Source of the DNA: a virus
Strand: one strand, 5' to 3'
DNA length: 56,431 nt
Virus record (IMG/VR): IMGVR_UViG_3300045988_170861
Coordinates: 1-56,431 of that record
The notes below the pieces were generated by a model. The model was not told the DNA's origin. It was given only the letters and a program-made list of their open reading frames with translations, and searched no databases. The first letter of the stretch is position 1; each line of letters opens with the position of its first letter. The position numbers and the translations under genes were made by a program. Shown piece after piece: positions 14,718-32,775 of the stretch.

Positions 14718-14720
14718 TAA

Positions 14721-15828: not shown

Positions 15829-15839
15829 ATAAAAATAAA

Positions 15840-15865
15840 GGCTAGGAATATTAATTCCTAGCCTT
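15840..15865. terminator. bidirectional terminator hairpin AGGCTAGGAA-N6-TTCCTAGCCT (copy 1)
   Basis: 10-bp perfect stem flanked by A-run and T-run between convergent genes. Confidence 0.7.
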
Positions 15866-15868
15866 TTA

Positions 15869-16658: not shown

Positions 16659-16663
16659 AATAA

Positions 16664-16779: not shown

Positions 16780-16807
16780 ATTATTTAATTAACTATATTT
16801 ATATAAA

Positions 16808-16833
16808 AGGCTAGGAACGTTAATTCCTAGCCT
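16808..16833. terminator. terminator hairpin AGGCTAGGAA-N6-TTCCTAGCCT (copy 2) at 3' end of giant gene
   Basis: Identical stem to 15840..15865, loop differs (CGTTAA vs TATTAA). Confidence 0.7.
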
Positions 16834-16839
16834 TTTATT

Positions 16840-19800
16840 TTACCAACTTAGAGCTTCTGCTCCTTGATAGTATTCTGGAGTATCTTTTTCTTTTAATCGT
16901 TCTCTTCTATCTTTTTTACGGTCTTTTCTAGCTTTTACTACTGTACTTCTTTTCACTCCTAACTCTTTTAATTTTTTTGCATATGGTGCAAGGTTTTCTT
17001 TTCGCTCTTCTGCATCAAGGTAATCATCAATAGCATTTTGTTTTTCTTTTGATGTCTTATTCATATTGTAATATTTAAGCGATCCTAATTCGGTATCTAT
17101 AGCTTCATTTGTAGATTTAAAGCCCATACCACGAATAATTCTACTCATAGCATCATCATATTTTGTTGTAATTCGTCCTCTTCCGTCCTTGCTTTCACCA
17201 ATAGCAGCGGTATATATATTATACATACCTGGTGATATAGAACGTAACATTCCTAAATTATCACCTTTTGTAGCATTTAAATAAAATTGAGCAATAGTAC
17301 CGCCAGTAGCACCTCCGAATTTTTCCATAGCTTTAATTACAGGGTTTGCATCTTTGTTATAATCTTCTCCTAATCCTGGTATTATATCATTCATACCAAC
17401 ACGAGAACTAATATCTATACCAACGTTACTCAAACCACCATACAATAATGTTCTTATAGCTACTCTTTCTGGCAAACTTGCGTCTTTACTAGCTTCTAAT
17501 AAAAATTGTCTTACTGCTTGTTTTGGACTTACTCCAAATACAGGTTCAGAAATCAAGCCAACAAGAGCCCATAATAAATCTTCTGCTGGTAAACCAAATG
17601 CACCCGCAAAGAAAATCCAACCACCCCAGAATGTAGCCTTTTGTTGCCATGTTGCGTCTTTTTTACCATTAAACGGAATAAAATCACGCATTAATTCAAA
17701 TTGTTTTATAGGATATTTCATAAACTGAAATAACACCTGGCTTATAATGCTTCCACGTCTGAATACGTTTGGAGCATCATTTACGCCATAATCAAAGTTA
17801 GCCTTACGGTTTATATCACGAGCATATTTAACAGCATCATCATGATTTTTATTTAATACATTTCTTGCTTTTCTATATGCTGCAAGAATAGTTGCACAAC
17901 GTGCTAATCTTTCTGAAGCTTTAAATAAAATCATTGAGCGGTCGCCCCATTTACCAAAGCTTGTTTTACTATAACCAGCACCACTATCAAGCCCTAATTC
18001 ATGAAGTACGCCCGTATCTTCCATGGCTTTTCTTTCATCAGGTTTTAATTTTGCTATTCTCTTTTCTGTTTGACTTTCTTTCAAAGCAGCGATATCTTTT
18101 GCAGCCTTCATTACTTCACTAGCAGCTTTTATAGGATTTTTATCTGTTAGTAATGCTGTCGTATTTAAAAGTTGTGTTAAATTAAGCATAGCCGATGACA
18201 CATTCCATACACCGAGTTTTAAAATAGATATTTTATTTGTTATATTACCAGCAACAGATAATGCAGCTCTTTCACCATAACGCGATGTAAATAAATATCT
18301 CCACAGTCTGCGATTATTGAGCCATGTACTTATAGAATTTTCTAATGCTGATGGATTACCGTTTACATCATTGATATAGTCTTTGATATATCTAGCTGTA
18401 CCATTAAGATATTTATTATCCGTACCAATTCTTCCATATATACGTTCAAAATAAGAAATGGCCTTAGGTTTAAATTCTGTTTCTAATGCTTCATATCTAC
18501 AAGCACTATTGAAGTAATGTCTTAACACCCAATTTAAATCTTTATCTTCATATCCTTTAGCACCTGTTCTATGCTGGATATTTCCAAAGAAACGATGTTT
18601 ACTAGAGCGTCTTACCTTGTTTTTATTATCACCTTTTTTATTCAAAAGTTGTTCGACATCATCAATACTCATATCAAATTCATTTGCAATACGTTCATTT
18701 ATTTTTTTATAAGCACCATCGCCAACCATTTCAGCATAATATTCTTCATCAATTCCGACCTCATTAAAATCAAATCGTTTAGGGTGAATTATTAACTTAG
18801 CATTTTCATTGTCTTTTAAATACTGTTCTGCTTTTTTATAGGCTTCTTTTACATTTCTTCCACTATCCACAGTTGTAGTAGTTCCATCATCATTTTGAAC
18901 TACTACATAGAAATCATGGAAAAAGTGTGGTACATATCCTTCTAATTTATTTACTTTTGGAATAGCTTCACGATATTTAACAGTGTATAGCTTGTTATTA
19001 TCAAGGTTTATTTTTTCGCCTTTTGGTGTACTGTAATCATCGCCGTAAATATGAGTGCTTCCATCTTTTTCCGTTACTCCTTCTTTTTCTTCTAAAATCT
19101 GGATAGCCTCATCTTTTCTAAGTGCTTCTAATTGGGCTTTGTTACAAACATCTTGTCTTATATGACTAGGGCGAATTTCATACGTTACCAAAACATCGTC
19201 CTTATCTTTTTCATTTTGAACCTCATCTAAGATATTGACGAATTTATTTTGTTTTAATCCTTCAAGTTTACTTTTAGAAATAATTTCTGATTTTGTTTGT
19301 ATTTGCGTTCTAGCTCTATTTATTAACTCATAGCACTCATTTAAAAGACCTCTAATAGCAATATATGCTTTAGCTGTACCTTTTTTTACTCCTGTTTCTT
19401 CTACGATTTTATCTGCACGTTTTTCAAAATCAGTTATGCCTTTTCCATACTCTTCGCTTAATGCATCACCTTTAAACATCAAATCATTTAATTCCTCTAT
19501 ATCCTTATCTTTGTTTTCAAGATAATCAAACGCTTCATTTAACTTTTTATTATAATAATGACGATTTTTAAGTTGTTTACGCATAGCATTATCAGCATAA
19601 TTAAATACGGGTTTAAATGCTACATACTTTTCGGCTAATCTTTCTGGTGATGATAATATAGATTCAAAACCACCAATATTACCAAGCTCATCAACTTTTT
19701 TATCATGTGCACTTTTACTGTATATCTTTATACGCTCATCTTTTTTATTTTTAGTAAATCTATTTTTAATATTTTTAAAAGCACCTTTAAAAATACCTGT

Positions 19801-22800
19801 AGCACTATCAACACTTTTATCATTGTCAGCAGAAAATTGAGAGTTATATTCGTCATCGTCAAATAAAACGCTCATATAATCCTCACCATATTGACGAATT
19901 AAAGACTCCTCTTCTTCTTTACCTATAGAATAAAAATCTCTATTATCATTAATTTTTATCTCGCCATTTTTTCCACGTTCAAATAGTTTATTTCCCTGAT
20001 TATCAACGATAGATGAAGATAGTTTCATAAAATTTTTAAACATAGATTTCTTCTGTGTATTAGTCAATCCAGCTTTAGGATTGTTTAAGAAATCAGTAAA
20101 TCTATTCATTAAATCACGAATAAATGAAATTAATCTTTTGGCCAAAGATTTATTTTCTTTGCCTAAATTTCTTAAATATTTAACACGTTTAACTACATCA
20201 TAAAAACCATCAGCCATCATTTCTTCAATAATTTTATCTTCAGATAATTTATCACCACGCCAAACAGTTTTACGATAATCCTCAATCTGTTTTGGTGTAA
20301 CTCTTTTCTTCATATCATTTAACATATCATTAAACAAACTAGGATTATTTCTGGCTATCCAATGGAATGTTTCATGCCAAAATACTTTAGGGTGGGACCA
20401 GTTACCATTTACATTAAGATATGTTGTACCGTGAGAGTGCCAACCTCTAAATCCTTTTGGACCTGTAAACCAATATATTGGAGTTCCCATTCTATCGCCG
20501 ATTGCAGATATTTCTTTTTCATAATCGCCAATTTTAACATTATCGAAATCAGCTTTTTCTCTAATATCTACATACTCATCTAATTTTTTATACATATCTT
20601 CAGCAAAAGAATAATTACTAGATTGTTCTTTATCTGTTATTCCTCTAACCGCATTAACAAATTTCTGTCTATCTTCTGATGACGAAAATAAAAAACCTTT
20701 AGCAAATCTACTATATCCACCGCCAGATTGTTTTGCTAATGATTTCAACTGCTGAAAATTCATTTGCTCTTTTACTTTTACACGATATTTTAATTCGCCA
20801 TTTCTAGTATCAGTATGAGTATCTAAAGTAAATTTGTCATCATCAACATTCTCAATACTACCAGAGCTACTATCAGATGAATTTCCTTTTTTTGCTTCTA
20901 TTTCTTTTTTCTTTTCTATCATAGATGTGATTATATCCGCAAATTCGTCAATAGTTTTGTCAGGATTAATTTCATAAGGTGATGTATTTTTTTTAGCAGC
21001 TAATTTATCATTTTTAAAAATATTTATGAAGCCATTGTATTTACCTTTATTATCGACATCATCTTTAGCTAGTGATTTTATTATTGGTTCAATATATTTT
21101 TTTACATTTTGTTTTAAATTTTGAGCACTACTATTTGATACTTCAGGTATCATTAAAAGCCTATTGCGCATTCTTAAAACAATTTTTCTCATATTACCAG
21201 TTGTAGTTTGTAGGTTTGAATCATACCCAAAATAATAATTGTAGATATCTTTTATATTATCTATTTTTTCTTTAGTATCTTTGTTAATGTGTATAGTATC
21301 TACATATTTAACTGGTTTTTCATTAGAGAAATCAAAGTCATCAACATTTATTGATTGTTCAGGCGATGATTTTTCTTTAGTGCTTTTTGTAGTTTTTATA
21401 CCTTCTTTTGTAAGGCTACCAACTATAATATGTTCATTCAAGAAATCAGCGTCATCTTTTTTAGGTGCATTTTCTTCTTTAACTACGTTATCGTCTTCGC
21501 TTTCAACTACGTTATCTGTCATATCCTCATCATAATTGTTATCAACATTATTATCTACACCTATATTTAATTTGCTGTTGATATCAGCTTGTTTAGCTAA
21601 TAATTCATTTAGTTTATCCTCATCAGCAAATTTCTTATTCATTTCTTTTGTTAGTTCTTTTTGTCTTTCGACAGATTGTTTTATTATATCGTTATTAGTT
21701 TCAACTATTTTTTGTGGCATATTATTTACTGTAGCTTCAATACTTCTAATAGAATTTTTAGCTTCATATGACCAATTATTTACCAATGTTAAAATTACTT
21801 CTCCACTCGTTTTTGTAGTATGTCCATAAAGAGTTGTAGAAGTAGGAACAAATCTAGCTTTTAAATCAAATCCAGCTATTTCACCTATTTTTGTATTATT
21901 TTTATTTTGTTCTTTCAATATTGGTTCTGTAATTTTATCTAATGCCAATTGTGCTTTTTTACGGTCAGTAAACAGCCTATTACCAATTTTAATTGAAAAG
22001 TTTTTACCGCTTATATCTTTATGTTGTTTAACATCAAGAGTAGCTTTTTCACTTGCTTTTGTAGCATTTTCAATTTTTCCTGGAAGCTTTTCTAATTCTC
22101 TTTTTATTCTTGATTGCTTCTTATCAAAAGAATTTTTTAAGCTAGTATATTTTCCAACCTCAGCATCAATAAGAACTTTTTCTGCCATTAATGGATTACC
22201 AGAAGCTAACGATTCAGCTTCGGCAAAACTCATTGCTAATACGTCGTTATCCTCAATAATACGTTGTGTAATATCAGCACTCAACGCTTCTGATATGAAA
22301 TGCTGCTTATTCTTTATTTTTTCCCACATATTAGCATCAAAGCTATCTTTTGTTACATACGTATATATCCCGACTTCTTTATTTTCATTTCCTTGTCGTA
22401 AAATACGTCCTTCTCGTTGCTCTATATCACGAGGTCGCCATGGGCAATCTAAATGATGTAATGCAACAAGTTTTTTTTGACAGTTAGTTCCTGCCCCCAT
22501 TTTTTCTGTTGAACCAATCAGCACACGCACTTTACCATTATTTACATTATCAAATAACTCTTGTTTTTTAGCCCTTGTTTTTGCGTCATGAATAAAAGCT
22601 ATTTCATTTTCTTTTATTCCTTTTTCTATTAGTTGTCGTTTTATTTCATGATATACATTAAATTTGCCATTAGATATATCGTTTTCATTATCTGTATCTA
22701 CATCAACATTATCATTATTTTTATCGCTAACTCCTGCTGGTGTAGATAAATCGCAAAATATAAGTTGTGCTCCTTTTGTACTATTACTATCTTTGTATTC

Positions 22801-25800
22801 TTTATAAACATTATCTACAAGTGAAGATATTTTTGTACCTGCTTGTGAAACTGGTACTTCTGGGTTTATTAATCTTACATCAAGACTAGCTTTTCGCAAT
22901 TCTCCTGTAAGTTTTAACATATTATCTTCTGTTGGGTCTACTTTTCTTTGGCGTATCATTTCTGCTCTATTTTTTACATCGTTAGTAATAAAATCTTTTA
23001 ATGCAGATGAAGCTTCTACCGAAACTACAATTCTTTTTCCAGTTTTCATTTTTGGTACTTTTAAATGTAAATCTTCTGGGCGTTTTACATCAGCAAATTT
23101 CCTAAACATTTTAACCATTTCTGGCTTATTAACAAATGCTGAAGCTTTATTTACAGCTCTATAACCATTTCCATCTGGATTTCTTTCTACAGTTTGAGTA
23201 ATATCTACAAATTGATTAGCCCAATTATCAAAATACAATAAATTATTTTTACGTAAATTATCCTCATCAAGATAACGCATCATTGTATACATTTCAGCAA
23301 GTGTATTTGATATCGGTGTACCAGTTGCAAAAACAACACCACGTCCGCCATTAGTTTTAGTTATATATTTTGTTTTTAAATACATATCCATAGAACGTTG
23401 ACTTCCTGTATTTGATAAACCTGCTACACGTTGCATTTTTGTTGTAAAAGATAAATTTTTAAATAAATCTGCTTCATCAACAAATATCTGGTCTATGCCT
23501 AATTCTTCAAAAGGTATAACCATGTCTTTTTTTTCTTCAGCAATATCTCGTTTTAATTTTGTTTTAAGATTAATTATTGATTTTTCAAGGTTACGAGTTA
23601 CCATGCTATCTAACAAACTTTTATCGCCTTGAGAATTTATTTCTCTTATAGCTTGCTCTAGTGAATTTTCTTGTTCTCTATAGAATTCATTATATGCTTC
23701 TGGCGACATTGGAATTCGCTTAAACATATCATGCGAAATAATTATTCCGTCCCAATCTTCTGTAGCTATTTGTGTTAAAATTCTTTGGCGTTGTGCAATT
23801 TTTTCTGATTTTCTTGAACTGTCCTTATCTTTTTTTGTTACTTCTGGTAAGTTTTCAGATGATACTATTAACAATTGAACATTAGGATAAATTTGTCTAA
23901 ATTCATTTGCGAACTGTTGTATCATATGTCCAGGAATAACAAATAATGGTTTTTTACAAATTCCTAAACGACGCATTTCCATTGCTGCTGTTTGCATAGT
24001 CCATGTTTTACCAGCACCAACACTATGAGCAAGTAAAGTATTTGAATTTTGCATTATACGCCATACAGCATCTTTTTGATGTTTTCTTAACGGTGGTGCT
24101 ATTAATGAATATCCTGGTAATATTAAATGTGAACCATCATATTCACGCAACTTCCAATTATTAAAGTTTGTATTGTAATAATCAAGTAATCTTTTTGTTC
24201 GCTTTTCGTCTGACCATATCCAATCATTAAATGCCTTTTTAATATTATCAATCATATTATTTGCAGCTGTTGTAGCATCATCATCAACGACTGATTTATT
24301 CTCACTAATAGTCTTTTTTATGACTGGTCGCTTTTGATTTAATGCTGCTTCTAGCAATTTATCAAAAGACCAACGGTTACTAATACCCCATGTTTCAGTA
24401 AACGAAACATTATTTTTAACCCAAGTATCAGCTTTAACTGCCCACTCACCATTAGCTGGCAAATAAATTACATCAATATAATCACTATTTACACCAACAG
24501 TTTCTGCTGCAAATTGTTTTATATCACTTGCTGGTATCCATGAAGCACCAAGATTAACTGTTATTTCTTCTGGAACAAGGTCAACTGGTTGAACTTTTTT
24601 GAGTGCCTCAATATTTTCTTTATAGCTACTATCTGTTTTCGCTACTTCTTCAGCTTGAGCTAATTTTTCACGTACATTGCCAGACAAATATTCATCTTGT
24701 GTTTCATATAATCCTGTCATCGGATTTTTATAAATAACGCCTTTGAGATTTTCAACTATTTCTTTTGGCTCTTTTCCAACTAAATTAGCCATATAATCAA
24801 TATCTACTTTTCCTTGTTCGCGTAAACTTATAGCTAGTGCGTCAGATGGGCTGTCAGCTTTTGTTGGTTTTTTTACTAATCCAACTGTTCGCATATTAAA
24901 AATATCTGATTTTCCAACAGTAACTTTTTTAGTCTTTTTATCTTCTGAATATCGTTCTATTGCCGATACCATTCCGTATTCTGGGTCAGTTGCAAGATAA
25001 CGAGAATTGTTTTTATTATTCAAATATCCGTTGTTTTCAACAAATGTATCATACAAAGTATTAAGTTCTGTTCTTATCTTTGAAATAGCTGTATCACTTA
25101 TTTTGTTATCAACTTGAGCTGACAATAATTGTTTTAATTTGTTTTTAACATTAACAAAATCTTTAACAAGTTTTTGCTTTGCTTTTGGAACTTCTTCTAA
25201 TTTACCATTTATATTTTGATATACTTTACCACTTTTACCAATAGTATAAGAATTATCTCTAAGCTTATTCGGTGCAAGATATTCCATTGTAGCCTGTTTA
25301 CTATCTTTTACAGGATTTAACAATGGCTCGTAAACATCTTCAGCTATTTTTTTTGTTATTTTTGATAACTTTTTAGGTAAATCAATATCCTTACCACTTA
25401 CATTTAAAGCATCGTTTCCATAACGACCAGAAATTGATGTAATTTTTCCAGCTACCATTTCAGGATTTTTTATATAATATTGGTTCATTTGAAACATACG
25501 TTCATCAACATCAATAAGGTCTGTTTCAATCCAATCTTTAGCATTAATATCTGCTTTTAATGGGTCAATGCGTTTCTTTAATATTATTATGTCAGAAATA
25601 ACATTTGTACCTGTATTATTTTTAAATGCTGTATCAGGTAACCTAATAGCACCTATTAAATCAGCTTTATCTTTTAAATATATACGTAAACGCTTTGAAT
25701 CATGACTATTATCCATAGTTCCTTTAGTAGTTATAAAAACAATCAATCCACCTGGTCTAACTTTATCCAAAGCTTTAGCAAAAAAGTAATTATGAATATC

Positions 25801-28800
25801 AAATTTATATTTATTGAATTTAGCATCGTGTACTCTAAATTGACCAAATGGAACATTACCAATAGCTAAATCAAAGAAGTTATCAGGAGAACTAAGTTTT
25901 TCAAATCCAGTGATATTAATATTAGCTTTTTGATAAAGTTGTGTAGCAATCTGACCACTTATTTTATCCAATTCTACGCCTGTTAAATATGAATTTCCCA
26001 TTATTTTTTCAGGCATAAGACCAAAGAAATTACCTACTCCCATTGATGGTTCAAGTATTTTACCGCCTTTAAATCCTAATCTATCAACAATTTTCCAAAT
26101 AGATTTTACTACATTAGGTGCTGTGTAATATGCAGAAAGCATAGACTCTTTAGCTGCTCTATATTCATCATCGGTTAATAATTCTTTTAATTCATTATTT
26201 GTTTTTTCATCAGAAAATACCGATGTCATTCCGCCCCAGCCACTATATTTTGCTAATGTTTTTTGTTCTGCAGACGTTGCTTTTCTACTTTCTATTTCTA
26301 ATTGTTTTAAAAGTTTTATTGCTTTTATATTATTTTTATATCGTTTTTCTTTACCACCTTCACCGACATTATCTTTATCTGACATTCTATAGTTAATAAG
26401 TGCAGGCTCATTACTTATTTCTTTTACCGTTTCTGTTGTTAAAGGTTCTATCTTTCGTTCATCATTTCCCAAGCCAGCATTTCCGCTTCCATTCTGCGTC
26501 TGGTCAACTCCAGATAATCGTCCGTTGGTGTCTGGTCGTTCATCAACATTTGTGTCAAGTCCTCGTGTTGATTGTCCCTCTCCTCGATTATTTTCTGTAC
26601 TTGTTGACGAAGATTTCCTTTCTTCTTCATTGCTTCCAGTTCCTTCGGATTGTTTACTTCCATTTGTAATATTTCCTCGTCTATTCTGTTCTTCATCGAG
26701 AACGCCATTATCTTTCACCTCATCAGTTTTATTTATTAAATTATTGTCTTTAGCATAATTATATATATTATCTATAACACGAACAATTGAATCAATAGTT
26801 CTACTTTCAACTGCTGAATATCTACCAACGCGAGGATTATTTTCCCATATATCACGGCGATTATCTTGTTCTTCTTTTGTTGTAGCTTTATTTATCCACT
26901 GTTCAACAGCTTCTGCTTCTTTTTCTTTTGCTATTTTATTTAAAGCTGAATACTTGTTACCAGCATATTTTAATGAGTTATCTATTTCATCTAATGTTAC
27001 ATCAAATTTTCTGTTAGAACCAAATAACAGTCTTTGACTTAATTCAGGAGAATCTACACTATCAAAATCTTTTTCTGTATAATTACTTTTTTTAGCATCT
27101 TTTGAAGTTAATGTTATTACATTTCCTCTTAAAAAACCATTATACATACCGATTTTATCATTAAATTTATAGATAATAGGATTTTTTTTGTTGCTTTTTT
27201 GTTCTTTAGTTTTTTCTTCTTTTTCTACATTTTCTTCTTGCGGTTTATTTTCTTCTTTAGTTTTTTCTTCTGTTACGTTAGTTTCCTTTACATCAACCTC
27301 TTTTTCTTTTGTAACTTTATCATTGCTTTGTTTTTCTTTATCTTTTGCTACTGCTTCTTCAATTGCTTGTTTTCTTGCTATTGCTGATTCAGCTAATATG
27401 TCATCAATTCCTAATCCTTTACCTTCTGGAGTAAATACTTTTTCCATCAAGTCTTTATATTTTTTTCTTATCTTAATTAACTTATTTTTAAGTTCTTCTT
27501 TTATATCATGGTCGTTTATAGCTTCTAAATCTTTAAATAATTGTTTTGTATATTCATCACCTTTTTTTACTTCTTCCACTGTAGGGTCTTTGAAGTTTTC
27601 TGGTATTTTTTCTATCTGTTCAGTAGAAGCTTCTTTTTCGCTTGATTTTTTTTGCTCTTTAACTTCTTCTTTATTATTTTTATTTAGTTTGTCTTTTAAG
27701 AAGTTGAAATAATCATGTTCTCCTTTAGTTATTTTTTCTTTTTTATCATCTTTAACTAAATAATAATTACTTCCATCTTTTTGAACATTATAACTGTCAT
27801 CGCTTATAGATTTTTCTATTCTTTCTTGACGAGAAATTTCACTATTAGGAAGTATTTTCTTTAATGTATTTGTAGCTTGTGATTTTTTTAATGATGTATC
27901 TAATGTATTGATATATTGATTAAAATATGGCTCTAAATCAATATTTTGATTTTGTTCAACGTTATTAGAAGGTTCTTCATTTACTATTTGTTCTCGTTGT
28001 TTTGGTGTCTTATATGAACCATAAACTTGCGGTGGTAATGTGAAATTTTTTGCAAACTCAACACCGCTTTTAATTAATTTATTTCTTCTAGCTTCTATTC
28101 TTGTTTGATTAGCGAGCTGAATTGGATTAAGAATTTTATTTTGTAGAATGTTGTTAGCTGTTGATGTTGATTCAACTTTTTGTACATTGTCATTAACAAC
28201 ATTATTTTGCTGTTGTTGTACTTGTTGATTATTAGCTATTTCATTAGCATAATTTTTCATCAAATATTGTTTTGCTTTTTGCTCATCTAAGAATTGATTA
28301 TCTTCATTATTATTTTTAAATAATGATTGTAATTTAGCTATTTCTTCTGGATTTCTACTTGTTTTAACTCGTTGTCTTGCAAACTCACGTAACCTATCAA
28401 GGTTAGGAGTTTCCATTTGAATTTTATTATTATTTGTAGATTTATTTTCGTTTGATGATGGTTTAACTGTATTAGTTGTTTTAATTGATTTAGTTAATGG
28501 TTCATTATTTTGTTTTTGTCTACTATTAACATAATCATAAATATTATCTTCTATACCTGGATAACGTTGTATTAATGCTCTTAAATTATCATCAGTAGCT
28601 TTAAATAGTTTATTTCCTCTTCCATCTATTATTGTTTTATCCTTAAAAAATTCTGTCGTTTCACCATCAGCATTATTAAGCATATCATTAGCAAAATCTA
28701 AAATAGAATTATCAAATTGTACGCTTGCTTCTGCTATATTTGTTTTACCTTTTGTTCCTAATCCACCTTTATATCCTTCTAAATGTAAATGATATCCACT

Positions 28801-30723
28801 GCCTACGTCATGAAATAATACATCTTCGAAAGCTCCTGTGTCCTCAAAACGTTTCCTTACAGCTTGTGCTTGTTCGTCTGTAATTCCGTTTGGTAAAACA
28901 ATATCTACTGCATCACCTTTTGTATGATATGAACCTTCAACGCCTCCAACTTCTCTATTATGTTCAGGTGTTCTATATGCTGATGAAATTGCTGAACCTT
29001 CTGCCATACCCATATCATCAAGAATACCACCAATATATGGTAATGCACTTTTAAATGCAGGAGTAAGTCCTTCTATTTGATTTTCTATTCCTGGTTGAAC
29101 AGATAAATTATACGTATGCATATTATATCTTGATAGTCCATCATCTTGTATTTCACCAGCAATACTTTCAATATTCGCTCCATACTCATTCGGGTCAGAA
29201 GAAAAATATCCATTATCATATAATACACGTGCAAAATCTTGTCCATTTTTTACATTGGATAAATCATAATGGCTTAATGTTTGTTTTGCATACTCATGAG
29301 CAAAATCTTCTATTGAATCAAAACTTTGTAACTCATTTGCTGTAGTATCCGTTCTTTTTAAGCCAGCAAAATTATTAGTTCTGTTAGCATTTCCAGCAGT
29401 AAATCTTCCACTTTCTAATGCCCATTGTGAATAAATATATTTTGTTAAATCTGGTCGTCCTATATCATCAGCAGCGATTTTTGCAGCTTCCCATGCTTTT
29501 TCATTTTCTACGCCTTTTGGTACACCTTGGTCTGTTACATATCTTGTATAAGAAGCAGCTCCGCTCATTGGTGCTCCTGTAAGTGCTCCTATAAGTAGAG
29601 AGTCAAGCTGGTCTTGACTAGCGTTCCAAGGCAACAATCCCCAATCTTTATCTGTTTGTGCATTTGAAATACCTTGCTGTACATACTCTTCTAAACCTTG
29701 TTGAGCCGATGTAGCTAATGTAGAAGGAACAGAACGATATGTCCCTTTAATTAATCTTTTAGGAATGCTTTCTCCTTCTACCGCAAGAGGCTTAAATATC
29801 TTTCCGCCAAGTAATCCATATTCAAGACCATTCGATATTGCCAATGATGGCAAATTCAATCCAGCAGTTTTCCAACCGCGTAAAAACGGATTGTCTAATC
29901 CTTCTTCTTTTGCTTGTCTTACTACATTACCACCTTCAGATAAACTTTCAGGTACAGATGTTATAGAACCTCTTATCATTGTTTCTAAAGCATCGTCGCT
30001 TAATCCACGTAAAAAAGGTAATTTTTTTAATGTCTGTGCTGCTGATGTTACTTTTGTAGCTGGTGCTAAGAATGAAGATGGATATAATGCAGCCATTGAG
30101 CCGACCATATTACCAACATCATAAGTCAAGCCAGATGGATTAGTTAAGTAATCTAGCGATAAAATATTATCTGCTCCACTATACTCTCTATCTCTTTTAT
30201 TTAATTTAGAAATAGCATTTAATTCATTTCCTGTTTTTTCTGCTCCGAATATATCAGCAATCCCACCAGCTACAGAACTTGCTCCACTAACAGCACCTTT
30301 ACCAAAATTATAATTATATTCAGCAGCAGTTGGTGCATATGTTTGTTGCATTGCGTGTTCAACTTCATTTGCACCAGCCAATCCACTAAATAATAAACTG
30401 ATAGGCGACTGATTAATTCCTAAATGTTTCAATTCTCCAAACGGCATTGCTCGTTCTAAACCTGCTACAGTATCTTTAAGTTTTTGTGGAATATATTCAT
30501 TATAAGTATCAGATATATTGTTTGCTACCCAATCATAATTATTAGAAATTCCATTTGCTACATATTCAGCATTATTAGAAATACCGCTGGCTATATCACC
30601 AGCGGTATCAAATATTTTATCTAATGTAGACTCATTTTCTTCTTGTCGTCTTTTTTCTTCTTCTGCGTTATATGTTCCAACAGGGCCTGTTGCTTTTATA
30701 AAGTTCTGTAAAAATTTAGACAT
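16840..30723 (-). CDS. giant polyvalent virion/ejection protein (4627 aa): glucosaminidase + M15 peptidase + N6A-MTase + SNF2 helicase + HExxH zincin + hydrophobic C-terminus
   Basis: Motifs YSQWALESGRF...NNFAGLK; SAYRTPEHNRE...H.H; ILEPSMGVGNFFG and NVPFG; AHSVGAGKT, FVDEAD, TGTPISN, QREGRILRQG; FWHETFHW. Confidence 0.85.
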   Translation of the reverse strand: MSKFLQNFIKATGPVGTYNAEEEKRRQEENESTLDKIFDTAGDIASGISNNAEYVANGISNNYDWVANNISDTYNEYIPQKLKDTVAGLERAMPFGELKHLGINQSPISLLFSGLAGANEVEHAMQQTYAPTAAEYNYNFGKGAVSGASSVAGGIADIFGAEKTGNELNAISKLNKRDREYSGADNILSLDYLTNPSGLTYDVGNMVGSMAALYPSSFLAPATKVTSAAQTLKKLPFLRGLSDDALETMIRGSITSVPESLSEGGNVVRQAKEEGLDNPFLRGWKTAGLNLPSLAISNGLEYGLLGGKIFKPLAVEGESIPKRLIKGTYRSVPSTLATSAQQGLEEYVQQGISNAQTDKDWGLLPWNASQDQLDSLLIGALTGAPMSGAASYTRYVTDQGVPKGVENEKAWEAAKIAADDIGRPDLTKYIYSQWALESGRFTAGNANRTNNFAGLKRTDTTANELQSFDSIEDFAHEYAKQTLSHYDLSNVKNGQDFARVLYDNGYFSSDPNEYGANIESIAGEIQDDGLSRYNMHTYNLSVQPGIENQIEGLTPAFKSALPYIGGILDDMGMAEGSAISSAYRTPEHNREVGGVEGSYHTKGDAVDIVLPNGITDEQAQAVRKRFEDTGAFEDVLFHDVGSGYHLHLEGYKGGLGTKGKTNIAEASVQFDNSILDFANDMLNNADGETTEFFKDKTIIDGRGNKLFKATDDNLRALIQRYPGIEDNIYDYVNSRQKQNNEPLTKSIKTTNTVKPSSNENKSTNNNKIQMETPNLDRLREFARQRVKTSRNPEEIAKLQSLFKNNNEDNQFLDEQKAKQYLMKNYANEIANNQQVQQQQNNVVNDNVQKVESTSTANNILQNKILNPIQLANQTRIEARRNKLIKSGVEFAKNFTLPPQVYGSYKTPKQREQIVNEEPSNNVEQNQNIDLEPYFNQYINTLDTSLKKSQATNTLKKILPNSEISRQERIEKSISDDSYNVQKDGSNYYLVKDDKKEKITKGEHDYFNFLKDKLNKNNKEEVKEQKKSSEKEASTEQIEKIPENFKDPTVEEVKKGDEYTKQLFKDLEAINDHDIKEELKNKLIKIRKKYKDLMEKVFTPEGKGLGIDDILAESAIARKQAIEEAVAKDKEKQSNDKVTKEKEVDVKETNVTEEKTKEENKPQEENVEKEEKTKEQKSNKKNPIIYKFNDKIGMYNGFLRGNVITLTSKDAKKSNYTEKDFDSVDSPELSQRLLFGSNRKFDVTLDEIDNSLKYAGNKYSALNKIAKEKEAEAVEQWINKATTKEEQDNRRDIWENNPRVGRYSAVESRTIDSIVRVIDNIYNYAKDNNLINKTDEVKDNGVLDEEQNRRGNITNGSKQSEGTGSNEEERKSSSTSTENNRGEGQSTRGLDTNVDERPDTNGRLSGVDQTQNGSGNAGLGNDERKIEPLTTETVKEISNEPALINYRMSDKDNVGEGGKEKRYKNNIKAIKLLKQLEIESRKATSAEQKTLAKYSGWGGMTSVFSDEKTNNELKELLTDDEYRAAKESMLSAYYTAPNVVKSIWKIVDRLGFKGGKILEPSMGVGNFFGLMPEKIMGNSYLTGVELDKISGQIATQLYQKANINITGFEKLSSPDNFFDLAIGNVPFGQFRVHDAKFNKYKFDIHNYFFAKALDKVRPGGLIVFITTKGTMDNSHDSKRLRIYLKDKADLIGAIRLPDTAFKNNTGTNVISDIIILKKRIDPLKADINAKDWIETDLIDVDERMFQMNQYYIKNPEMVAGKITSISGRYGNDALNVSGKDIDLPKKLSKITKKIAEDVYEPLLNPVKDSKQATMEYLAPNKLRDNSYTIGKSGKVYQNINGKLEEVPKAKQKLVKDFVNVKNKLKQLLSAQVDNKISDTAISKIRTELNTLYDTFVENNGYLNNKNNSRYLATDPEYGMVSAIERYSEDKKTKKVTVGKSDIFNMRTVGLVKKPTKADSPSDALAISLREQGKVDIDYMANLVGKEPKEIVENLKGVIYKNPMTGLYETQDEYLSGNVREKLAQAEEVAKTDSSYKENIEALKKVQPVDLVPEEITVNLGASWIPASDIKQFAAETVGVNSDYIDVIYLPANGEWAVKADTWVKNNVSFTETWGISNRWSFDKLLEAALNQKRPVIKKTISENKSVVDDDATTAANNMIDNIKKAFNDWIWSDEKRTKRLLDYYNTNFNNWKLREYDGSHLILPGYSLIAPPLRKHQKDAVWRIMQNSNTLLAHSVGAGKTWTMQTAAMEMRRLGICKKPLFVIPGHMIQQFANEFRQIYPNVQLLIVSSENLPEVTKKDKDSSRKSEKIAQRQRILTQIATEDWDGIIISHDMFKRIPMSPEAYNEFYREQENSLEQAIREINSQGDKSLLDSMVTRNLEKSIINLKTKLKRDIAEEKKDMVIPFEELGIDQIFVDEADLFKNLSFTTKMQRVAGLSNTGSQRSMDMYLKTKYITKTNGGRGVVFATGTPISNTLAEMYTMMRYLDEDNLRKNNLLYFDNWANQFVDITQTVERNPDGNGYRAVNKASAFVNKPEMVKMFRKFADVKRPEDLHLKVPKMKTGKRIVVSVEASSALKDFITNDVKNRAEMIRQRKVDPTEDNMLKLTGELRKASLDVRLINPEVPVSQAGTKISSLVDNVYKEYKDSNSTKGAQLIFCDLSTPAGVSDKNNDNVDVDTDNENDISNGKFNVYHEIKRQLIEKGIKENEIAFIHDAKTRAKKQELFDNVNNGKVRVLIGSTEKMGAGTNCQKKLVALHHLDCPWRPRDIEQREGRILRQGNENKEVGIYTYVTKDSFDANMWEKIKNKQHFISEALSADITQRIIEDNDVLAMSFAEAESLASGNPLMAEKVLIDAEVGKYTSLKNSFDKKQSRIKRELEKLPGKIENATKASEKATLDVKQHKDISGKNFSIKIGNRLFTDRKKAQLALDKITEPILKEQNKNNTKIGEIAGFDLKARFVPTSTTLYGHTTKTSGEVILTLVNNWSYEAKNSIRSIEATVNNMPQKIVETNNDIIKQSVERQKELTKEMNKKFADEDKLNELLAKQADINSKLNIGVDNNVDNNYDEDMTDNVVESEDDNVVKEENAPKKDDADFLNEHIIVGSLTKEGIKTTKSTKEKSSPEQSINVDDFDFSNEKPVKYVDTIHINKDTKEKIDNIKDIYNYYFGYDSNLQTTTGNMRKIVLRMRNRLLMIPEVSNSSAQNLKQNVKKYIEPIIKSLAKDDVDNKGKYNGFINIFKNDKLAAKKNTSPYEINPDKTIDEFADIITSMIEKKKEIEAKKGNSSDSSSGSIENVDDDKFTLDTHTDTRNGELKYRVKVKEQMNFQQLKSLAKQSGGGYSRFAKGFLFSSSEDRQKFVNAVRGITDKEQSSNYSFAEDMYKKLDEYVDIREKADFDNVKIGDYEKEISAIGDRMGTPIYWFTGPKGFRGWHSHGTTYLNVNGNWSHPKVFWHETFHWIARNNPSLFNDMLNDMKKRVTPKQIEDYRKTVWRGDKLSEDKIIEEMMADGFYDVVKRVKYLRNLGKENKSLAKRLISFIRDLMNRFTDFLNNPKAGLTNTQKKSMFKNFMKLSSSIVDNQGNKLFERGKNGEIKINDNRDFYSIGKEEEESLIRQYGEDYMSVLFDDDEYNSQFSADNDKSVDSATGIFKGAFKNIKNRFTKNKKDERIKIYSKSAHDKKVDELGNIGGFESILSSPERLAEKYVAFKPVFNYADNAMRKQLKNRHYYNKKLNEAFDYLENKDKDIEELNDLMFKGDALSEEYGKGITDFEKRADKIVEETGVKKGTAKAYIAIRGLLNECYELINRARTQIQTKSEIISKSKLEGLKQNKFVNILDEVQNEKDKDDVLVTYEIRPSHIRQDVCNKAQLEALRKDEAIQILEEKEGVTEKDGSTHIYGDDYSTPKGEKINLDNNKLYTVKYREAIPKVNKLEGYVPHFFHDFYVVVQNDDGTTTTVDSGRNVKEAYKKAEQYLKDNENAKLIIHPKRFDFNEVGIDEEYYAEMVGDGAYKKINERIANEFDMSIDDVEQLLNKKGDNKNKVRRSSKHRFFGNIQHRTGAKGYEDKDLNWVLRHYFNSACRYEALETEFKPKAISYFERIYGRIGTDNKYLNGTARYIKDYINDVNGNPSALENSISTWLNNRRLWRYLFTSRYGERAALSVAGNITNKISILKLGVWNVSSAMLNLTQLLNTTALLTDKNPIKAASEVMKAAKDIAALKESQTEKRIAKLKPDERKAMEDTGVLHELGLDSGAGYSKTSFGKWGDRSMILFKASERLARCATILAAYRKARNVLNKNHDDAVKYARDINRKANFDYGVNDAPNVFRRGSIISQVLFQFMKYPIKQFELMRDFIPFNGKKDATWQQKATFWGGWIFFAGAFGLPAEDLLWALVGLISEPVFGVSPKQAVRQFLLEASKDASLPERVAIRTLLYGGLSNVGIDISSRVGMNDIIPGLGEDYNKDANPVIKAMEKFGGATGGTIAQFYLNATKGDNLGMLRSISPGMYNIYTAAIGESKDGRGRITTKYDDAMSRIIRGMGFKSTNEAIDTELGSLKYYNMNKTSKEKQNAIDDYLDAEERKENLAPYAKKLKELGVKRSTVVKARKDRKKDRRERLKEKDTPEYYQGAEALSW

Positions 30724-30741
30724 AATATAATCTCCTTATTT

Positions 30742-32775
30742 TTAATATCCAGGAATTAATTCTTTTTTATATTTATCTGGTATTCCACTGAAATATTTTT
30801 CAGCCATATCGGTATATCCAGCTTCAAGTTCTCTCCGTCCTTCAAGTGCTAATATCATTGAATTGGCATACGTGCTATCTTCTTCGTCCATTTCTGGTAA
30901 GTATTTTGCTACCTCATTTTTAAAGTTATCAATGTCTTCAGCATCTAATGATTGTTTAGCTTTCGCATATCCTTCTGCTAACGGTCTTGACCAATCTGGT
31001 ACTTTATCAGATGACGAGTTATTATCACTATTAGGCATTTTACCAGTTAAAACATAAAGTAAGCCCTGTCCTTGGTCCCATACCCCAGCACTTACTAATT
31101 GTTGAGCAGCATCTTGACGGGCATTAGCTTTATTTTGTTCACTTTGATTTCTTATACTCATTTCCAATCTTGTTACATAATCTTTTACTTTAAGTTGTAA
31201 TCCCGTATTAAAAGCATTTACATCTTTTTGAGCTGCTGTTTCTCTAGCAAGCATATCAACAGATTGTTTATATTTTCTATCTATATTCGCTTGTGTAAAT
31301 TGTTGTGCTAAATTTGCCTTATCTATATCGCGTGCAAATCCCCATTGTTCTTTTGGTGAAGCAAATTGACTAGCATATAATTGAGCCATTTCAGGATTGT
31401 TTGCTAATGTTGCTTGTGATAATAAAGCAATACCCATACTATTTAAAGAACCATCTGGATTAACTCCTGTTGTATTCATGACATTTTGAAGATTATTCAT
31501 ATATTTTGCTTCATACTGCATAGCCATATCAGAAGCAAATTGACGTGCATAATCTTCTGGTATTCTTTTCTTTATAGCTTCTTGATATGCTCGTTGATAA
31601 AAATTATTAGGATTTACAGTAATATCAGGCTGTTTTAATAGTTCTTGTGGCGTTAAATTATTTATTTGTTCAGTTTCTTCCTGTTGTTTTTTAGCATTTT
31701 GTTGAGCTTGTTCACCTTGTATCATTCGTGCTAAATTTTCTAAGCTTACATCAGAGCCTGCTTCTGGAATTGATATTCCATTTTCGGCTGCTAATTGTCT
31801 AATAGCTTCTGCTCTCATATTCGCATTTTGCATATCTTGCGTATTATTATTTTGTTGAGCATTTGCATAGTCTTGTTTAGATTGTAAAACACCATTTAAT
31901 AATTGCATTTTTATATCATCATAAGTAGGATTATCAAAGTTTTTAACTTTATTTAAGCGGTTTTGTACTTCTTCAACTGTATTTTCTCCCCCTGCTACAT
32001 CTAATTTTATGCCGTATAAATAAGCAAGTTGTCTTGCTCCATTTGCCTGTTGTTGTGCTTGTTGCATTCCTTGGGTATCTCCATTTTGTTGTGCACTAGC
32101 ATATTTATTTTTAGCGTCAATTATTTGTTGATATAGCATTTGTTCAATAGATTGTCCATTATAAGAATTAGCCTCACCACCAGTTTTTAGTGATGAGGCC
32201 TGATAAAAAGAAGGTATACCAAATACATTTGAAATTGCATTGTTAACTACATTTTGACCTAAGTCAGACATTATATTATTACCACTTAACGAGCCATTAT
32301 CTTTTTGTGCTTCTTGCATTACCGCTTGATTGGTTAAGTTATTATTATTTTCATTTATTTGAGCTTGTGTTTGTGGCTGTTCTTGTTGTTGCCCTAATCT
32401 GCTTAAATCCATATTTTGATTGTTTGCTTGTGCAGCACTGTATATATCATATCCACTAATTGGAGTATTCAATAATTCTTCTTTTGTTTGTGGTACAAAT
32501 AATTCACCATTGGGCGAATATGCCTTAATTGCTGTATCAGTTAAACTATTACCTGTTGTATTTAAATTATCTGTAGCTAATGATTGATTATTATTTCCAG
32601 TTCCTGACATTTTATCTTGTAAATAATTTTGTATTTGTGGTTTTAAAAAATACTTTGAAATTAATGAGCCTGCTAAATATGCTGGATCTGCATTTTGCAT
32701 ACTCATCATCGATGCTATTTGATTTAATCTTTGTTGATACCAGTCTTGACCAGTTGAATTGTAATTTCCAGCCAT
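30742..32775 (-). CDS. Q/N-rich protein with internal tandem repeat, putative internal virion/ejection protein
   Basis: 677 aa, repeats KYASAQQNGDTQGMQQA... / QDYANAQQNNNTQDMQNA... Confidence 0.5.
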   Translation of the reverse strand: MAGNYNSTGQDWYQQRLNQIASMMSMQNADPAYLAGSLISKYFLKPQIQNYLQDKMSGTGNNNQSLATDNLNTTGNSLTDTAIKAYSPNGELFVPQTKEELLNTPISGYDIYSAAQANNQNMDLSRLGQQQEQPQTQAQINENNNNLTNQAVMQEAQKDNGSLSGNNIMSDLGQNVVNNAISNVFGIPSFYQASSLKTGGEANSYNGQSIEQMLYQQIIDAKNKYASAQQNGDTQGMQQAQQQANGARQLAYLYGIKLDVAGGENTVEEVQNRLNKVKNFDNPTYDDIKMQLLNGVLQSKQDYANAQQNNNTQDMQNANMRAEAIRQLAAENGISIPEAGSDVSLENLARMIQGEQAQQNAKKQQEETEQINNLTPQELLKQPDITVNPNNFYQRAYQEAIKKRIPEDYARQFASDMAMQYEAKYMNNLQNVMNTTGVNPDGSLNSMGIALLSQATLANNPEMAQLYASQFASPKEQWGFARDIDKANLAQQFTQANIDRKYKQSVDMLARETAAQKDVNAFNTGLQLKVKDYVTRLEMSIRNQSEQNKANARQDAAQQLVSAGVWDQGQGLLYVLTGKMPNSDNNSSSDKVPDWSRPLAEGYAKAKQSLDAEDIDNFKNEVAKYLPEMDEEDSTYANSMILALEGRRELEAGYTDMAEKYFSGIPDKYKKELIPGY

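What the first reader, a model, noticed from the sequence alone, without database searches (positions are those of the whole stretch)
16840..30723. 4627-aa single ORF encoding a multi-enzyme polyvalent protein at the end of the late operon
One uninterrupted 13.9-kb reading frame fuses at least five enzymatic modules (FlgJ-type glucosaminidase, M15 zinc peptidase, N6-adenine DNA methyltransferase, SNF2-family helicase, HExxH zincin) with long K/E-rich linkers and a hydrophobic C-terminus. This matches the concept of virion-packaged polyvalent proteins, which phages and conjugative elements inject to neutralise host defences. This particular domain order and size is unusual for a 56-kb temperate phage, where it takes up 25% of the genome.
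Basis: partly seen in the sequence, partly recalled or inferred. Interest (0 to 1): 0.9.

Follow-up and report, generated by a model that had tools for sequence, protein, structure and literature searches.

The report
Giant DarB-like polyvalent phage protein
This 4,627-residue gene is real, and it is a new gut-bacterium (Megamonas-type) member of a known class of giant proteins that phages carry in the virion to breach the cell wall and shield their DNA; closely related phages have swapped its enzyme-carrying middle while keeping both ends.

Summary
The ORF (16840-30723, minus strand, 4,627 aa, 524 kDa, 24.6% of the window) is confirmed. Four of the five proposed enzyme modules are well supported: GH73 glucosaminidase, M15 peptidase, and a P1-DarB-type methyltransferase followed by an SF2 helicase. 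The fifth, the HExxH peptidase, rests on an invariant motif and predicted topology.

The "polyvalent virion protein" reading holds, but the claim that it is unusual does not. Podoviruses of about 60 kb (Bcep22/JC1, PEp14, SopranoGao, Atu_ph08) each devote 21-25% of their genome to a 4,400-4,900-aa DarB-like protein, and JC1's was found in virions by mass spectrometry. The window protein shares the DarB core with them. It also shares the C-terminal "PLxRFG" module (hhalign 99.4%, E 3e-21), which occurs in 6,317 protein clusters and is almost always at the C-terminus.

The new observation concerns three near-identical Megamonas-type relatives (90-98% flanking DNA identity). They keep the N-terminal 400 aa and the C-terminal 1,350 aa. 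In two of them the 8.7-kb middle is replaced by non-homologous but functionally analogous modules (an SLT hydrolase, and a helicase followed by a methyltransferase). The third is a chimera of both versions. I read the ends as a conserved delivery framework and the middle as exchangeable cargo.

Verdict: a new member of a known kind, of moderate interest.

The parts
16840..30723 (-). Whole ORF: 4,627 aa, 524 kDa polyvalent protein
30732..30737 (-). Shine-Dalgarno AAGGAG, 8 nt upstream of the ATG
29527..30723 (-). N-terminal conserved module (aa 1-399), Gly/Ala/Ser-rich with no known domain. It is 77-79% identical in close relatives whose next module differs. Proposed role: packaging or ejection.
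   Evidence: no homology to proteobacterial N-termini
29149..29442 (-). GH73/FlgJ-type glucosaminidase domain (aa 428-525, 'ALESG')
28777..28992 (-). M15 (LAS-type) zinc peptidase (aa 578-649; H-x6-D and H-x-H zinc motifs)
28138..28734 (-). Segment after the hydrolase (aa 664-862) that is 43.5% identical in relatives carrying a different hydrolase; the only patch of DNA similarity inside the replaced region (28240-28452, 78%)
26404..28026 (-). Low-complexity K/E/N/Q-rich linker (aa 900-1440; up to 39% K+E)
20671..27375 (-). DarB-like core (aa 1117-3351), phrog_10089 at 1,660 bits, collinear with P1 DarB
25570..26229 (-). N6-adenine methyltransferase domain (aa 1499-1718; motif I at 1558, motif IV NVPFG at 1623)
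22018..24093 (-). SF2 helicase (aa 2211-2902; GAGKT 2236, DEAD 2416, ResIII, Helicase_C)
20847..29545 (-). Replaced segment: about 8.7 kb with no DNA similarity to the near-identical relative rel1 (apart from one 213-nt patch), although the flanks are 90-98% identical
20638..20847 (-). Small domain of about 65 aa (aa 3293-3362, 'THTDTRNGELKYRVKV...GGGYSRFAKGFLFSS') at the start of the conserved C-terminal block; it recurs at other positions in other family members
19864..20613 (-). HExxH (zincin-like) domain (aa 3371-3620; HETFH at 3450, EEMMAD at 3500)
   Evidence: fold searches not significant
16843..19323 (-). C-terminal module (aa 3801-4627), homologous to the C-terminal 'PLxRFG' region of proteobacterial giant DarB-like proteins. 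The motif here is GYVPHFFHDFYVVV (aa 3929-3942). A hydrophobic segment lies at aa 4370-4388, followed by a basic tail.
15837..15866 (-). Intrinsic-terminator-like hairpin (13-bp stem plus T-run) that closes the minus-strand unit two genes after the giant ORF
30742..32775 (-). Upstream 677-aa gene of unknown function; co-linear and 83-86% identical in the close relatives

Best explanation
The gene encodes a virion-carried polyvalent ejection protein of a short-tailed temperate phage, probably of Megamonas (a diderm Firmicute). It belongs to the same class as the giant 'DarB-like / PLxRFG' proteins of Bcep22-, PEp14- and SopranoGao-type podoviruses.

Proposed mechanism, with the status of each step:
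1. The protein is made late and incorporated into the capsid. This is inferred from the class member JC1 gp69 and from P1 DarB.
2. At infection it leaves through the portal and tail with the DNA. The conserved N-terminal (about 400 aa) and C-terminal (about 1,350 aa) blocks supply the packaging, ejection and envelope functions. This is inferred from their conservation, the fixed terminal position and a conserved hydrophobic segment.
3. The glucosaminidase and M15 domains cut the glycan and peptide bonds of peptidoglycan locally. The domains are shown; the activity is inferred.
4. The DarB-type methyltransferase and helicase act on the incoming DNA to protect it from type I restriction, as P1 DarB does. 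Homology is shown; the function is inferred.
5. The conserved HExxH domain may process the polypeptide. This is inferred from Iyer et al. 2017.

The middle of the protein is exchangeable cargo. Closely related phages carry non-homologous but functionally analogous modules between identical ends. This is shown.
For: Phage context: integrase, small and large terminase subunits, portal, major capsid protein, SU10-type adaptor, holin and GH25 endolysin are present, with no tape measure or tail tube.

DarB homology: three collinear alignments to P1 DarB (E 7e-30, 5e-17, 3e-13), and phrog_10089 'DarB-like antirestriction' at 1,660 bits.

Same class as known giants: 35-37% identity over about 1,700 aa to PEp14 gp27 and SopranoGao gp06, plus a second alignment in the C-terminal region. 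A profile-profile comparison of the C-terminal modules gives 99.4% probability, E 3.3e-21, over 574 columns, with PHFFH aligned on PLxRFG. Those genes have similar sizes and also close the virion gene block.

Virion association of a class member and of DarB: JC1 gp69 gave 51 unique peptides from CsCl-purified virions (PMC9144972). P1 DarB is a head protein with an N-terminal packaging signal (PMC9024508).

Family breadth: 6,317 clusters carry the C-terminal module, and it ends within 35 aa of the C-terminus in 148 of the top 150. Their upstream domains are the polyvalent-protein set.

Cargo exchange: the window and rel1 are 98% identical over 14685-20846 and 89-91% identical over 29546-32485, with nothing alignable between. 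Rel1 and rel2 carry SLT, LPD3 (rel1 only), and a helicase followed by an NPPY methyltransferase (phrog_10691) in that position. Rel3, from a Megamonas MAG, combines the window's glucosaminidase+M15 module (87-94% identity) with the rel1-type helicase and methyltransferase (78-85%).

Zincin: the catalytic residues are invariant in 19 homologues at 29-58% identity, and the AF2 model (pLDDT 77) has the helix, three-strand sheet, HExxH helix and Glu helix expected of the fold.
Against: There is no experimental evidence for this phage: packaging, ejection, methylation, helicase activity, antirestriction and proteolysis are all inferred.

The other virion genes show no BLAST similarity to those of PEp14 or SopranoGao, so common ancestry is shown only for the giant protein.

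The N-terminal module has no detectable homologue in the proteobacterial giants (hhalign 17.6%).

The C-terminal module has no structural match (model pLDDT 63.6; best Foldseek E 0.26), so its role is deduced from position and conservation alone.

Fold searches for the zincin domain were not significant.

Here the gene lies after the lysis cassette, whereas in PEp14 and SopranoGao it lies before it. In Atu_ph08 it sits elsewhere in the virion block.

The exact cargo combination in the window was found in no other sample.
Confidence: 0.8

Rival explanations
1. The protein is a cytoplasmic late enzyme that is never packaged. It would methylate or remodel progeny DNA and help lysis from within, and its size would simply reflect gene fusion.
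For: No virion data exist for this phage. The gene lies after the holin and endolysin genes rather than among the head and tail genes. The phage has another methyltransferase on the other strand (11813-12628), which shows that it uses DNA methylation generally.
Against: Proteins of this class and the founding member DarB are virion proteins (JC1 gp69; P1 DarB). Peptidoglycan hydrolases fused to DNA enzymes make sense only for an entry protein, and a separate GH25 endolysin with its holin already provides lysis. The conserved terminal modules, with the C-terminal one shared across phyla, point to a structural or delivery role.
Confidence: 0.07
2. It is mainly a structural protein, either a tape-measure-like tail protein or the inner-membrane component of the ejection channel as in T7 gp16. 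On this view the enzyme domains are accessories and antirestriction is not its function.
For: No tape measure or other obvious ejection proteins were identified. The protein has N-terminal peptidoglycan hydrolases like T7 gp16 and tape-measure-associated lysins, and phrog_342 'internal virion protein with endolysin domain' hits the relative's SLT region. The C-terminal module is helical with a conserved hydrophobic segment. Short family members of 1,460-2,000 aa lack the methyltransferase and helicase cargo.
Against: This does not exclude the main explanation: the framework may well form part of the channel. But both cargo versions keep a methyltransferase and a helicase despite being non-homologous, which argues for selection on that function. 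There is no sequence or fold similarity to any solved ejection or tape-measure protein, and none to N4 gp50.
Confidence: 0.1
3. The ORF is an assembly chimera or a fusion of several genes created by sequencing errors.
For: The exact product is not recorded elsewhere, and no other contig holds this DarB core at more than 49% identity. One relative (L008) has the equivalent gene split into 3,116 and 1,187 aa by a frame change.
Against: The frame stays open for 13.9 kb across both junctions in AT-rich DNA (P about 1e-175). Four independent relatives and dozens of more distant loci have single ORFs of 3,300 to more than 4,100 aa with the same ends. DarB-type cores occur on this same C-terminal module in other contigs (L017, L018, L021, L027). 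The junctions fall at domain boundaries.
Confidence: 0.03

Closest known systems
Giant 'DarB-like antirestriction / PLxRFG' virion proteins of roughly 60-kb podoviruses (Burkholderia Bcep22 gp75 and JC1 gp69; Erwinia PEp14 gp27; Klebsiella SopranoGao gp06; Agrobacterium Atu_ph08 gp21)
   Same: Size is similar (4,369-4,914 aa against 4,627), as is the share of the genome (21-25%). In PEp14 and SopranoGao the gene closes the virion gene block. All have an N-proximal peptidoglycan hydrolase, a DarB-type methyltransferase followed by a helicase (35-37% identity over about 1,700 aa to PEp14 and SopranoGao), and a homologous C-terminal module (hhalign 99.4%). Several of these phages are temperate and carry an integrase.
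   Different: The host is a low-GC diderm Firmicute rather than a proteobacterium. The hydrolase is GH73 plus M15 rather than a lytic transglycosylase. The PLxRFG motif is replaced by PHFFH. The N-terminal module is not detectably homologous. The remaining virion genes are unrelated at BLAST level. The gene follows the lysis cassette rather than preceding it, as it does in PEp14 and SopranoGao.
Phage P1 DarB (2,255 aa)
   Same: The methyltransferase, helicase N-lobe and helicase C-lobe are collinear, with motifs I and IV and the helicase motifs conserved. P1 DarB is packaged in the head and protects incoming DNA from type I restriction.
   Different: P1 DarB lacks peptidoglycan hydrolases, the zincin domain and the C-terminal module. 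It is half the size, belongs to a myovirus, and needs the partner proteins DarA, Hdf, DdrA, DdrB and Ulx. No genes with such annotations were found among the window genes scanned; a direct search for them was not made.
Polyvalent proteins as defined by Iyer, Burroughs, Anand, de Souza and Aravind 2017 (PMC5512222)
   Same: Unrelated enzymatic domains lie in one polypeptide encoded next to packaging genes. A zincin-like metallopeptidase acts as a hub domain. The combination of methyltransferase, SF2 helicase and peptidoglycan hydrolase is typical. That paper's own example comes from a Negativicutes prophage (Acetonema longum). Relatives of the window protein carry the ART-PolyVal, LPD3, ddrB-ParB, MuF_C and PBECR1 domains.
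   Different: This is a concept rather than a sequence family. The window protein itself hits none of the Pfam LPD or PolyVal models.
Coliphage N4 virion RNA polymerase gp50 (3,500 aa)
   Same: It is a giant enzyme ejected by a podovirus, with the enzymatic cargo in the middle, a terminal region needed for injection and another for encapsidation, and an HExxH domain in the latter (PMC13434306).
   Different: There is no detectable sequence or profile homology to the window's zincin or C-terminal module, and the cargo is an RNA polymerase. It is an analogue, not a relative.

Membership tests
DarB family (P1 DarB-type methyltransferase-helicase) | N-terminal gamma-type N6-adenine methyltransferase with motif I (xPxxGxGxF) and motif IV (N/D-P/V-P-F/Y) | tested here: met
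   EPSMGVGNFF at aa 1558 and GNVPFG at aa 1623; 31% identity to P1 DarB residues 58-275, E 7e-30
DarB family (P1 DarB-type methyltransferase-helicase) | An SF2 helicase follows the methyltransferase, collinear with P1 DarB | tested here: met
   Alignments to DarB residues 596-1123 (E 5e-17) and 1466-1648 (E 3e-13); ResIII, Helicase_C, GAGKT and DEAD present
DarB family (P1 DarB-type methyltransferase-helicase) | Packaged in the virion and protects incoming DNA from type I restriction | not testable with these tools
   Only precedent is available: P1 DarB and JC1 gp69
Giant DarB-like / PLxRFG virion proteins of Bcep22/PEp14-type podoviruses | Homologous C-terminal module of about 700 aa that begins at the PLxRFG motif | tested here: met
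   hhalign of A1 against A2 gives 99.4% probability, E 3.3e-21, over 574 columns. The motif position is conserved but reads PHFFH instead of PLxRFG. No NCBIfam model other than the two weak helicase matches reached E 0.1.
Giant DarB-like / PLxRFG virion proteins of Bcep22/PEp14-type podoviruses | A single ORF of more than 4,000 aa associated with the virion gene block of a roughly 60-kb short-tailed phage | tested here: met
   4,627 aa; the minus-strand block runs terminase, portal, capsid, adaptor, fibre, lysis genes, then this gene; no tape measure or tail tube. The position relative to the lysis genes differs from PEp14 and SopranoGao.
Giant DarB-like / PLxRFG virion proteins of Bcep22/PEp14-type podoviruses | The rest of the virion module is homologous (same phage lineage) | tested here: not met
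   No tblastn hit (E 1e-2) from any window protein to the PEp14 or SopranoGao regions fetched, which hold their tail, internal-virion and lysis genes. So this is the same protein class but not the same phage genus or lineage.
Polyvalent proteins (Iyer et al. 2017) | At least two unrelated effector or enzymatic domains in one polypeptide, encoded in a phage packaging or late-gene context | tested here: met
   Four to five unrelated catalytic domains in a phage late-gene block
Polyvalent proteins (Iyer et al. 2017) | Zincin-like metallopeptidase domain (three-stranded sheet, HExxH helix, downstream Glu helix) | tested here: inconclusive
SNF2 family helicases | SNF2-type N-lobe (Pfam SNF2-rel_dom) together with Helicase_C | tested here: inconclusive
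   Pfam gives ResIII and DEAD, not SNF2-rel_dom. DISARM DrmD (SNF2-like) matches only the C-lobe, at 50.7 bits against a cut-off of 610. It is best described as an SF2 helicase of the DarB type.
N4-like virion RNA polymerase framework | Homology of the zincin and encapsidation region to the C-terminal 1,400 aa of gp50 | tested here: not met
   hmmsearch and hhalign of A1 and A4 against N4 gp50 gave probabilities of 0.3% or less

The most novel reading that the evidence does not exclude
The N-terminal block (about 400 aa) and the C-terminal block (about 1,350 aa: small domain, zincin and PLxRFG-like module) may form a generic framework for packaging and ejection. On this reading the space between them is a cargo bay that tolerates in-frame replacement of close to 3,000 residues. 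Co-circulating Megamonas phages would then exchange whole anti-defence and cell-wall modules by recombination at domain boundaries, much as polymorphic toxins or tail-fibre cassettes are exchanged. The 6,317-cluster family would be a natural protein-injection platform that could be reprogrammed.
Probability: 0.4. Interest if true: 0.6.

Novelty: new member of a known kind. Interest (0 to 1): 0.38.

Why it matters
The finding extends the Bcep22/PEp14-type giant DarB-like virion proteins to temperate phages of a common human-gut Negativicute. It also shows that the C-terminal 'PLxRFG' module, in a divergent PHFFH form, is the shared anchor of a very large family of giant phage proteins.

The comparison of four near-identical phages is a natural experiment. 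It separates the parts that must be kept (both ends) from the parts that are interchangeable (the hydrolase type, and the methyltransferase/helicase type and order). Two non-homologous solutions keep the same set of functions, which suggests that selection acts on delivering a wall-cutting activity together with a DNA methylase and helicase activity.

This gives concrete boundaries (aa ~400, ~905 and ~3290) for engineering cargo swaps, and for testing how a 0.5-MDa protein is packaged and ejected. None of this is a new principle: polyvalent proteins, DarB antirestriction and giant ejected proteins are all established.

Tried and rejected
- Megablast of the gene against phage and plasmid records found nothing. 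tblastn of the N-terminal 700 aa and the C-terminal 1,277 aa against phage records also found nothing.
- A whole-protein search of the 5.8-billion-protein collection timed out. A search with aa 3281-3800 found nothing. An exact-product look-up found nothing.
- PDB sequence search of the whole protein gave only a weak methyltransferase hit, 2f8l, E 0.03. A profile of the zincin region against the PDB gave nothing meaningful.
- The AF2 model of the C-terminal module was only moderate (pLDDT 63.6). Foldseek against the PDB gave no match (best E 0.26, TM 0.11 or less), and the helical transporters in the list are noise.
- Homology of the N-terminal module to the N-termini of the proteobacterial giants is rejected (hhalign 17.6%).
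- Homology of the framework to N4 gp50 is rejected.
- Shared ancestry of the other virion genes with PEp14 or SopranoGao is not detected.
- The upstream 677-aa and 239-aa genes and the downstream 81-aa and acetyltransferase genes were tested as conserved partners. They are conserved only among the close relatives.
- A search for a donor of the DarB cargo found a nearest match of only 49% identity.
- The metagenome scan returned only duplicates of rel1 and rel2.
- No tRNA genes and no notable tandem repeats were found in the gene.
- Promoter and terminator scans between the lysis genes and the giant gene were not informative about the transcription unit.
Full report
**Observation.** The window holds an uninterrupted ORF on the minus strand from 30723 to 16840. 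It starts with ATG and encodes 4,627 aa. From the window's base composition, a stop is expected about every 12 codons, so an open frame of this length has a chance probability of about 1e-175. A canonical AAGGAG lies 8 nt upstream of the start, 18 nt after the stop of the preceding gene. The product is 524 kDa, and the gene takes up 24.6% of the window.

**Domains.**
- Pfam places a GH73/FlgJ-type glucosaminidase at aa 428-525 and a Peptidase_M15_3 at aa 578-626, both above their curated cut-offs. The expected catalytic or zinc motifs are present: ALESG, YHTKGDAVD and HLH.
- aa 1117-3351 score 1,660 bits against PHROG 10089, 'DarB-like antirestriction'.
- A direct comparison with P1 DarB gives three collinear alignments. 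The methyltransferase is 31% identical (E 7e-30) and includes motif I and the NVPFG motif IV. The helicase N-lobe gives E 5e-17 and the helicase C-lobe E 3e-13.
- Pfam calls the helicase ResIII plus Helicase_C. SNF2 affinity is limited to a sub-threshold DrmD match on the C-lobe, so 'SF2 helicase of the DarB type' is the safer name.
- HETFH at aa 3450 lies in a domain found upstream of the C-terminal module in about 45 of 170 retrieved family members. In 19 sequences at 29-58% identity, W-H-E-x-x-H and a downstream E-M-x-x-D are invariant.
- An AF2 model of this domain (pLDDT 77, pTM 0.68) shows a helix, a three-stranded sheet, the HExxH helix and a Glu-bearing helix. That is the zincin core as described in PMC5512222.
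- K/E-rich linkers are real. The C-terminus is not simply hydrophobic: there is one candidate membrane segment at aa 4370-4388, and the last 60 aa are basic.

**Context.** The element is a phage.
- It has an integrase (52932-54143). On the plus strand there are a RecE/RecT pair, replication genes, SSB, a radical SAM gene and a separate methyltransferase.
- On the minus strand it has small and large terminase subunits, a Prp-like protease, portal, major capsid protein, an SU10-type adaptor, large tail or fibre genes, a holin, a GH25 endolysin, small genes including a HicB-like one, genes of 239 and 677 aa, the giant gene, an 81-aa gene and an acetyltransferase. A strong terminator follows at 15866-15837.
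- No tape measure or tail tube was found, which suggests a short-tailed phage.
- A close relative lies in a MAG labelled as uncultured Megamonas sp., so the host is probably a Negativicute, a diderm Firmicute.

**This is a known kind.** tblastn of the core against phage records finds 152 records.
- The best annotated ones are giant genes: PEp14 gp27 (4,914 aa, 24.3% of the genome), SopranoGao gp06 (4,369 aa, 21.3%) and Atu_ph08 gp21 (4,877 aa, 24.8%). All are annotated 'DarB-like antirestriction' or 'PLxRFG protein'. In PEp14 and SopranoGao the gene follows internal-virion and structural genes and precedes the lysis cassette.
- Burkholderia phage JC1 gp69 (4,515 aa, 22.1% of the genome) was detected in CsCl-purified virions with 51 unique peptides. 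Such a gene is described as common to Bcep22-like and many Ralstonia phages (PMC9144972). JC1 itself was not compared here; it is cited as a member of the same annotated class.
- The window protein aligns with PEp14 and SopranoGao in the DarB core (35-37% over about 1,700 aa) and also near the C-terminus (E about 1e-9).
- A profile-profile comparison of the C-terminal modules gives 99.4% probability, E 3.3e-21, over 574 columns. It starts where 'GYVPHFFHDFYVVV' aligns on 'PYFPLARFGNLFVTV'.
- An exhaustive profile search finds this module in 6,317 cluster representatives (3,383 at E 1e-10 or better). In 148 of the best 150 it ends within 35 aa of the C-terminus. Of those 150, 78 are at least 3,000 aa, 44 are at least 4,000 aa, and the largest is 5,855 aa.
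- Thirteen other giants carrying this module contain SLT, M15, glucosaminidase, NlpC/P60, ddrB-ParB, ART-PolyVal, LPD3, MuF_C, PBECR1, Zeta toxin and various helicases and methyltransferases. This is the domain vocabulary of polyvalent proteins.

The size and genome share are typical of the class, not unusual.

**What the relatives add.** IMG/VR, metagenome and MAG scans give three close relatives.
- DNA identity to rel1 is 98% from 14685 to 20846 and 89-91% from 29546 to 32485. Between those points, inside the ORF, nothing aligns except a 213-nt patch.
- At protein level, aa 1-399 (77-79%) and aa 3281-4627 (96-97%) are conserved, but the middle is not.
- Rel1 (4,348 aa) carries an SLT transglycosylase, LPD3, a ResIII/Helicase_C helicase and then an NPPY methyltransferase (phrog_10691). 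The order is helicase then methyltransferase, the opposite of DarB. Rel2 (3,944 aa) is similar but lacks LPD3 and has a further insertion.
- Rel3, from the Megamonas MAG, joins the window's glucosaminidase+M15 module (87-94%) to the rel1-type helicase and methyltransferase (78-85%).
- So at least two cargo positions assort independently. The breakpoints are at about aa 400, 905 and 3290, at domain boundaries in low-complexity linkers.
- In 28 more distant loci from contigs that are mostly 55-60 kb, the same C-terminal module follows DarB-type cargo, rel1-type cargo or other cargo, and some ORFs are only 1,460-2,500 aa.
- The window's own DarB core has no relative closer than 49% identity in IMG/VR. 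The donor is unknown, and this exact combination is seen only here.

**Mechanism.** The best-supported account is a virion-carried ejection protein.
- The conserved ends would provide incorporation and exit. Two precedents fit: the N-terminal 30 aa of P1 DarB suffice for capsid targeting, and N4 vRNAP uses terminal regions for injection and encapsidation.
- The hydrolases would open the peptidoglycan.
- The methyltransferase and helicase would protect incoming DNA, as DarB does.
- The zincin may process the chain.
- Only the homologies, the architecture and the cargo exchange are shown. All activities are inferred.
- N4 gp50 is an analogue and not a relative. The C-terminal module has no structural match, and the N-terminal module has no detectable counterpart in the proteobacterial giants.

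**Verdict.** The feature is real and its general nature was read correctly, but it was overrated as unusual. It is a new member, from a Negativicutes-infecting phage, of the known giant DarB-like polyvalent virion proteins. The useful secondary result is that the ends are conserved while the middle has been exchanged among near-identical phages. Interest is moderate.

Noticed in passing
window 5153-6175 (+): A 340-aa protein matches phrog_17961 and, weakly, 'tubulin PhuZ' (E 1.2e-6). A TubZ/PhuZ-like tubulin in a 56-kb integrase-bearing phage could indicate a plasmid-like partition or DNA-positioning function.
   Followed up: no
window 10623-12628 (+): A radical SAM protein (phrog_9298, E 1e-87) lies next to a separate DNA methyltransferase (phrog_56). 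This may be a second, expressed-in-cell DNA modification module, independent of the virion methyltransferase.
   Followed up: no
window 48548-48871 (-): A Prp-type cysteine protease gene (PF04327, E 1e-16) sits between the large terminase and the portal. It may process capsid or scaffold proteins, or even the giant protein.
   Followed up: no
window 33534-37437 (-): The lysis cassette (holin 36964-37437, GH25 endolysin 35881-36468) lies upstream of the giant gene rather than after it. Between them are a HicB-like antitoxin gene (34006-34392) and a perfect bidirectional terminator-like hairpin at 33639-33666. This suggests that the 239-aa gene, the 677-aa gene, the giant gene, the 81-aa gene and the acetyltransferase form a separate transcription unit.
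   Followed up: partly
window 15869-16477 (-): An acetyltransferase (phrog_1758) lies two genes downstream of the giant gene and is 100% conserved in rel1. The proteobacterial phages also have an acyl-CoA N-acyltransferase near their giant gene (SopranoGao gp10, Atu_ph08 gp24, Itty13 gp07), but tblastn against the SopranoGao region that holds gp10 found no similarity; the other two were not compared.
   Followed up: partly
L008 664-13564; L010/L011 7775-13780: In a Logan contig, the equivalent gene is split into 3,116 aa (SLT, ddrB-ParB, helicase) and 1,187 aa, with both frames open over about 110 nt. This could be a frameshift or a sequencing error. That prophage lies next to glyQ/glyS. In two other bacterial contigs, only a 705-aa helicase fragment and a 1,259-aa C-terminal module remain beside glyQ/glyS, which looks like a decayed prophage at the same site.
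   Followed up: partly
window 20638-20847 (aa 3293-3362); also L019, L020, L022, L027: A domain of about 65 aa ('THTDTRNGELKYRVKV...GGGYSRFAKGFLFSS') marks the start of the conserved C-terminal block. It recurs at other positions, sometimes twice, in other family members. It has no Pfam match and may be an adaptor or junction domain.
   Followed up: partly
L043 (Pseudomonas phage Itty13, NC_070969.1 161-11419): The tblastn match to the DarB-like core (84% coverage, 36.7% identity) lies on the strand opposite to three annotated 'hypothetical protein' CDSs (gp01-gp03). The public annotation seems to have missed the giant gene and called ORFs on the wrong strand.
   Followed up: partly
rel2/rel3 (L013 about aa 2595-2700 of the ORF; L007): Even inside the conserved C-terminal block, rel2 and rel3 carry an extra insertion of about 110 aa between the small domain and the zincin. 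It is absent from the window and from rel1, so modular variation extends into the conserved framework.
   Followed up: no
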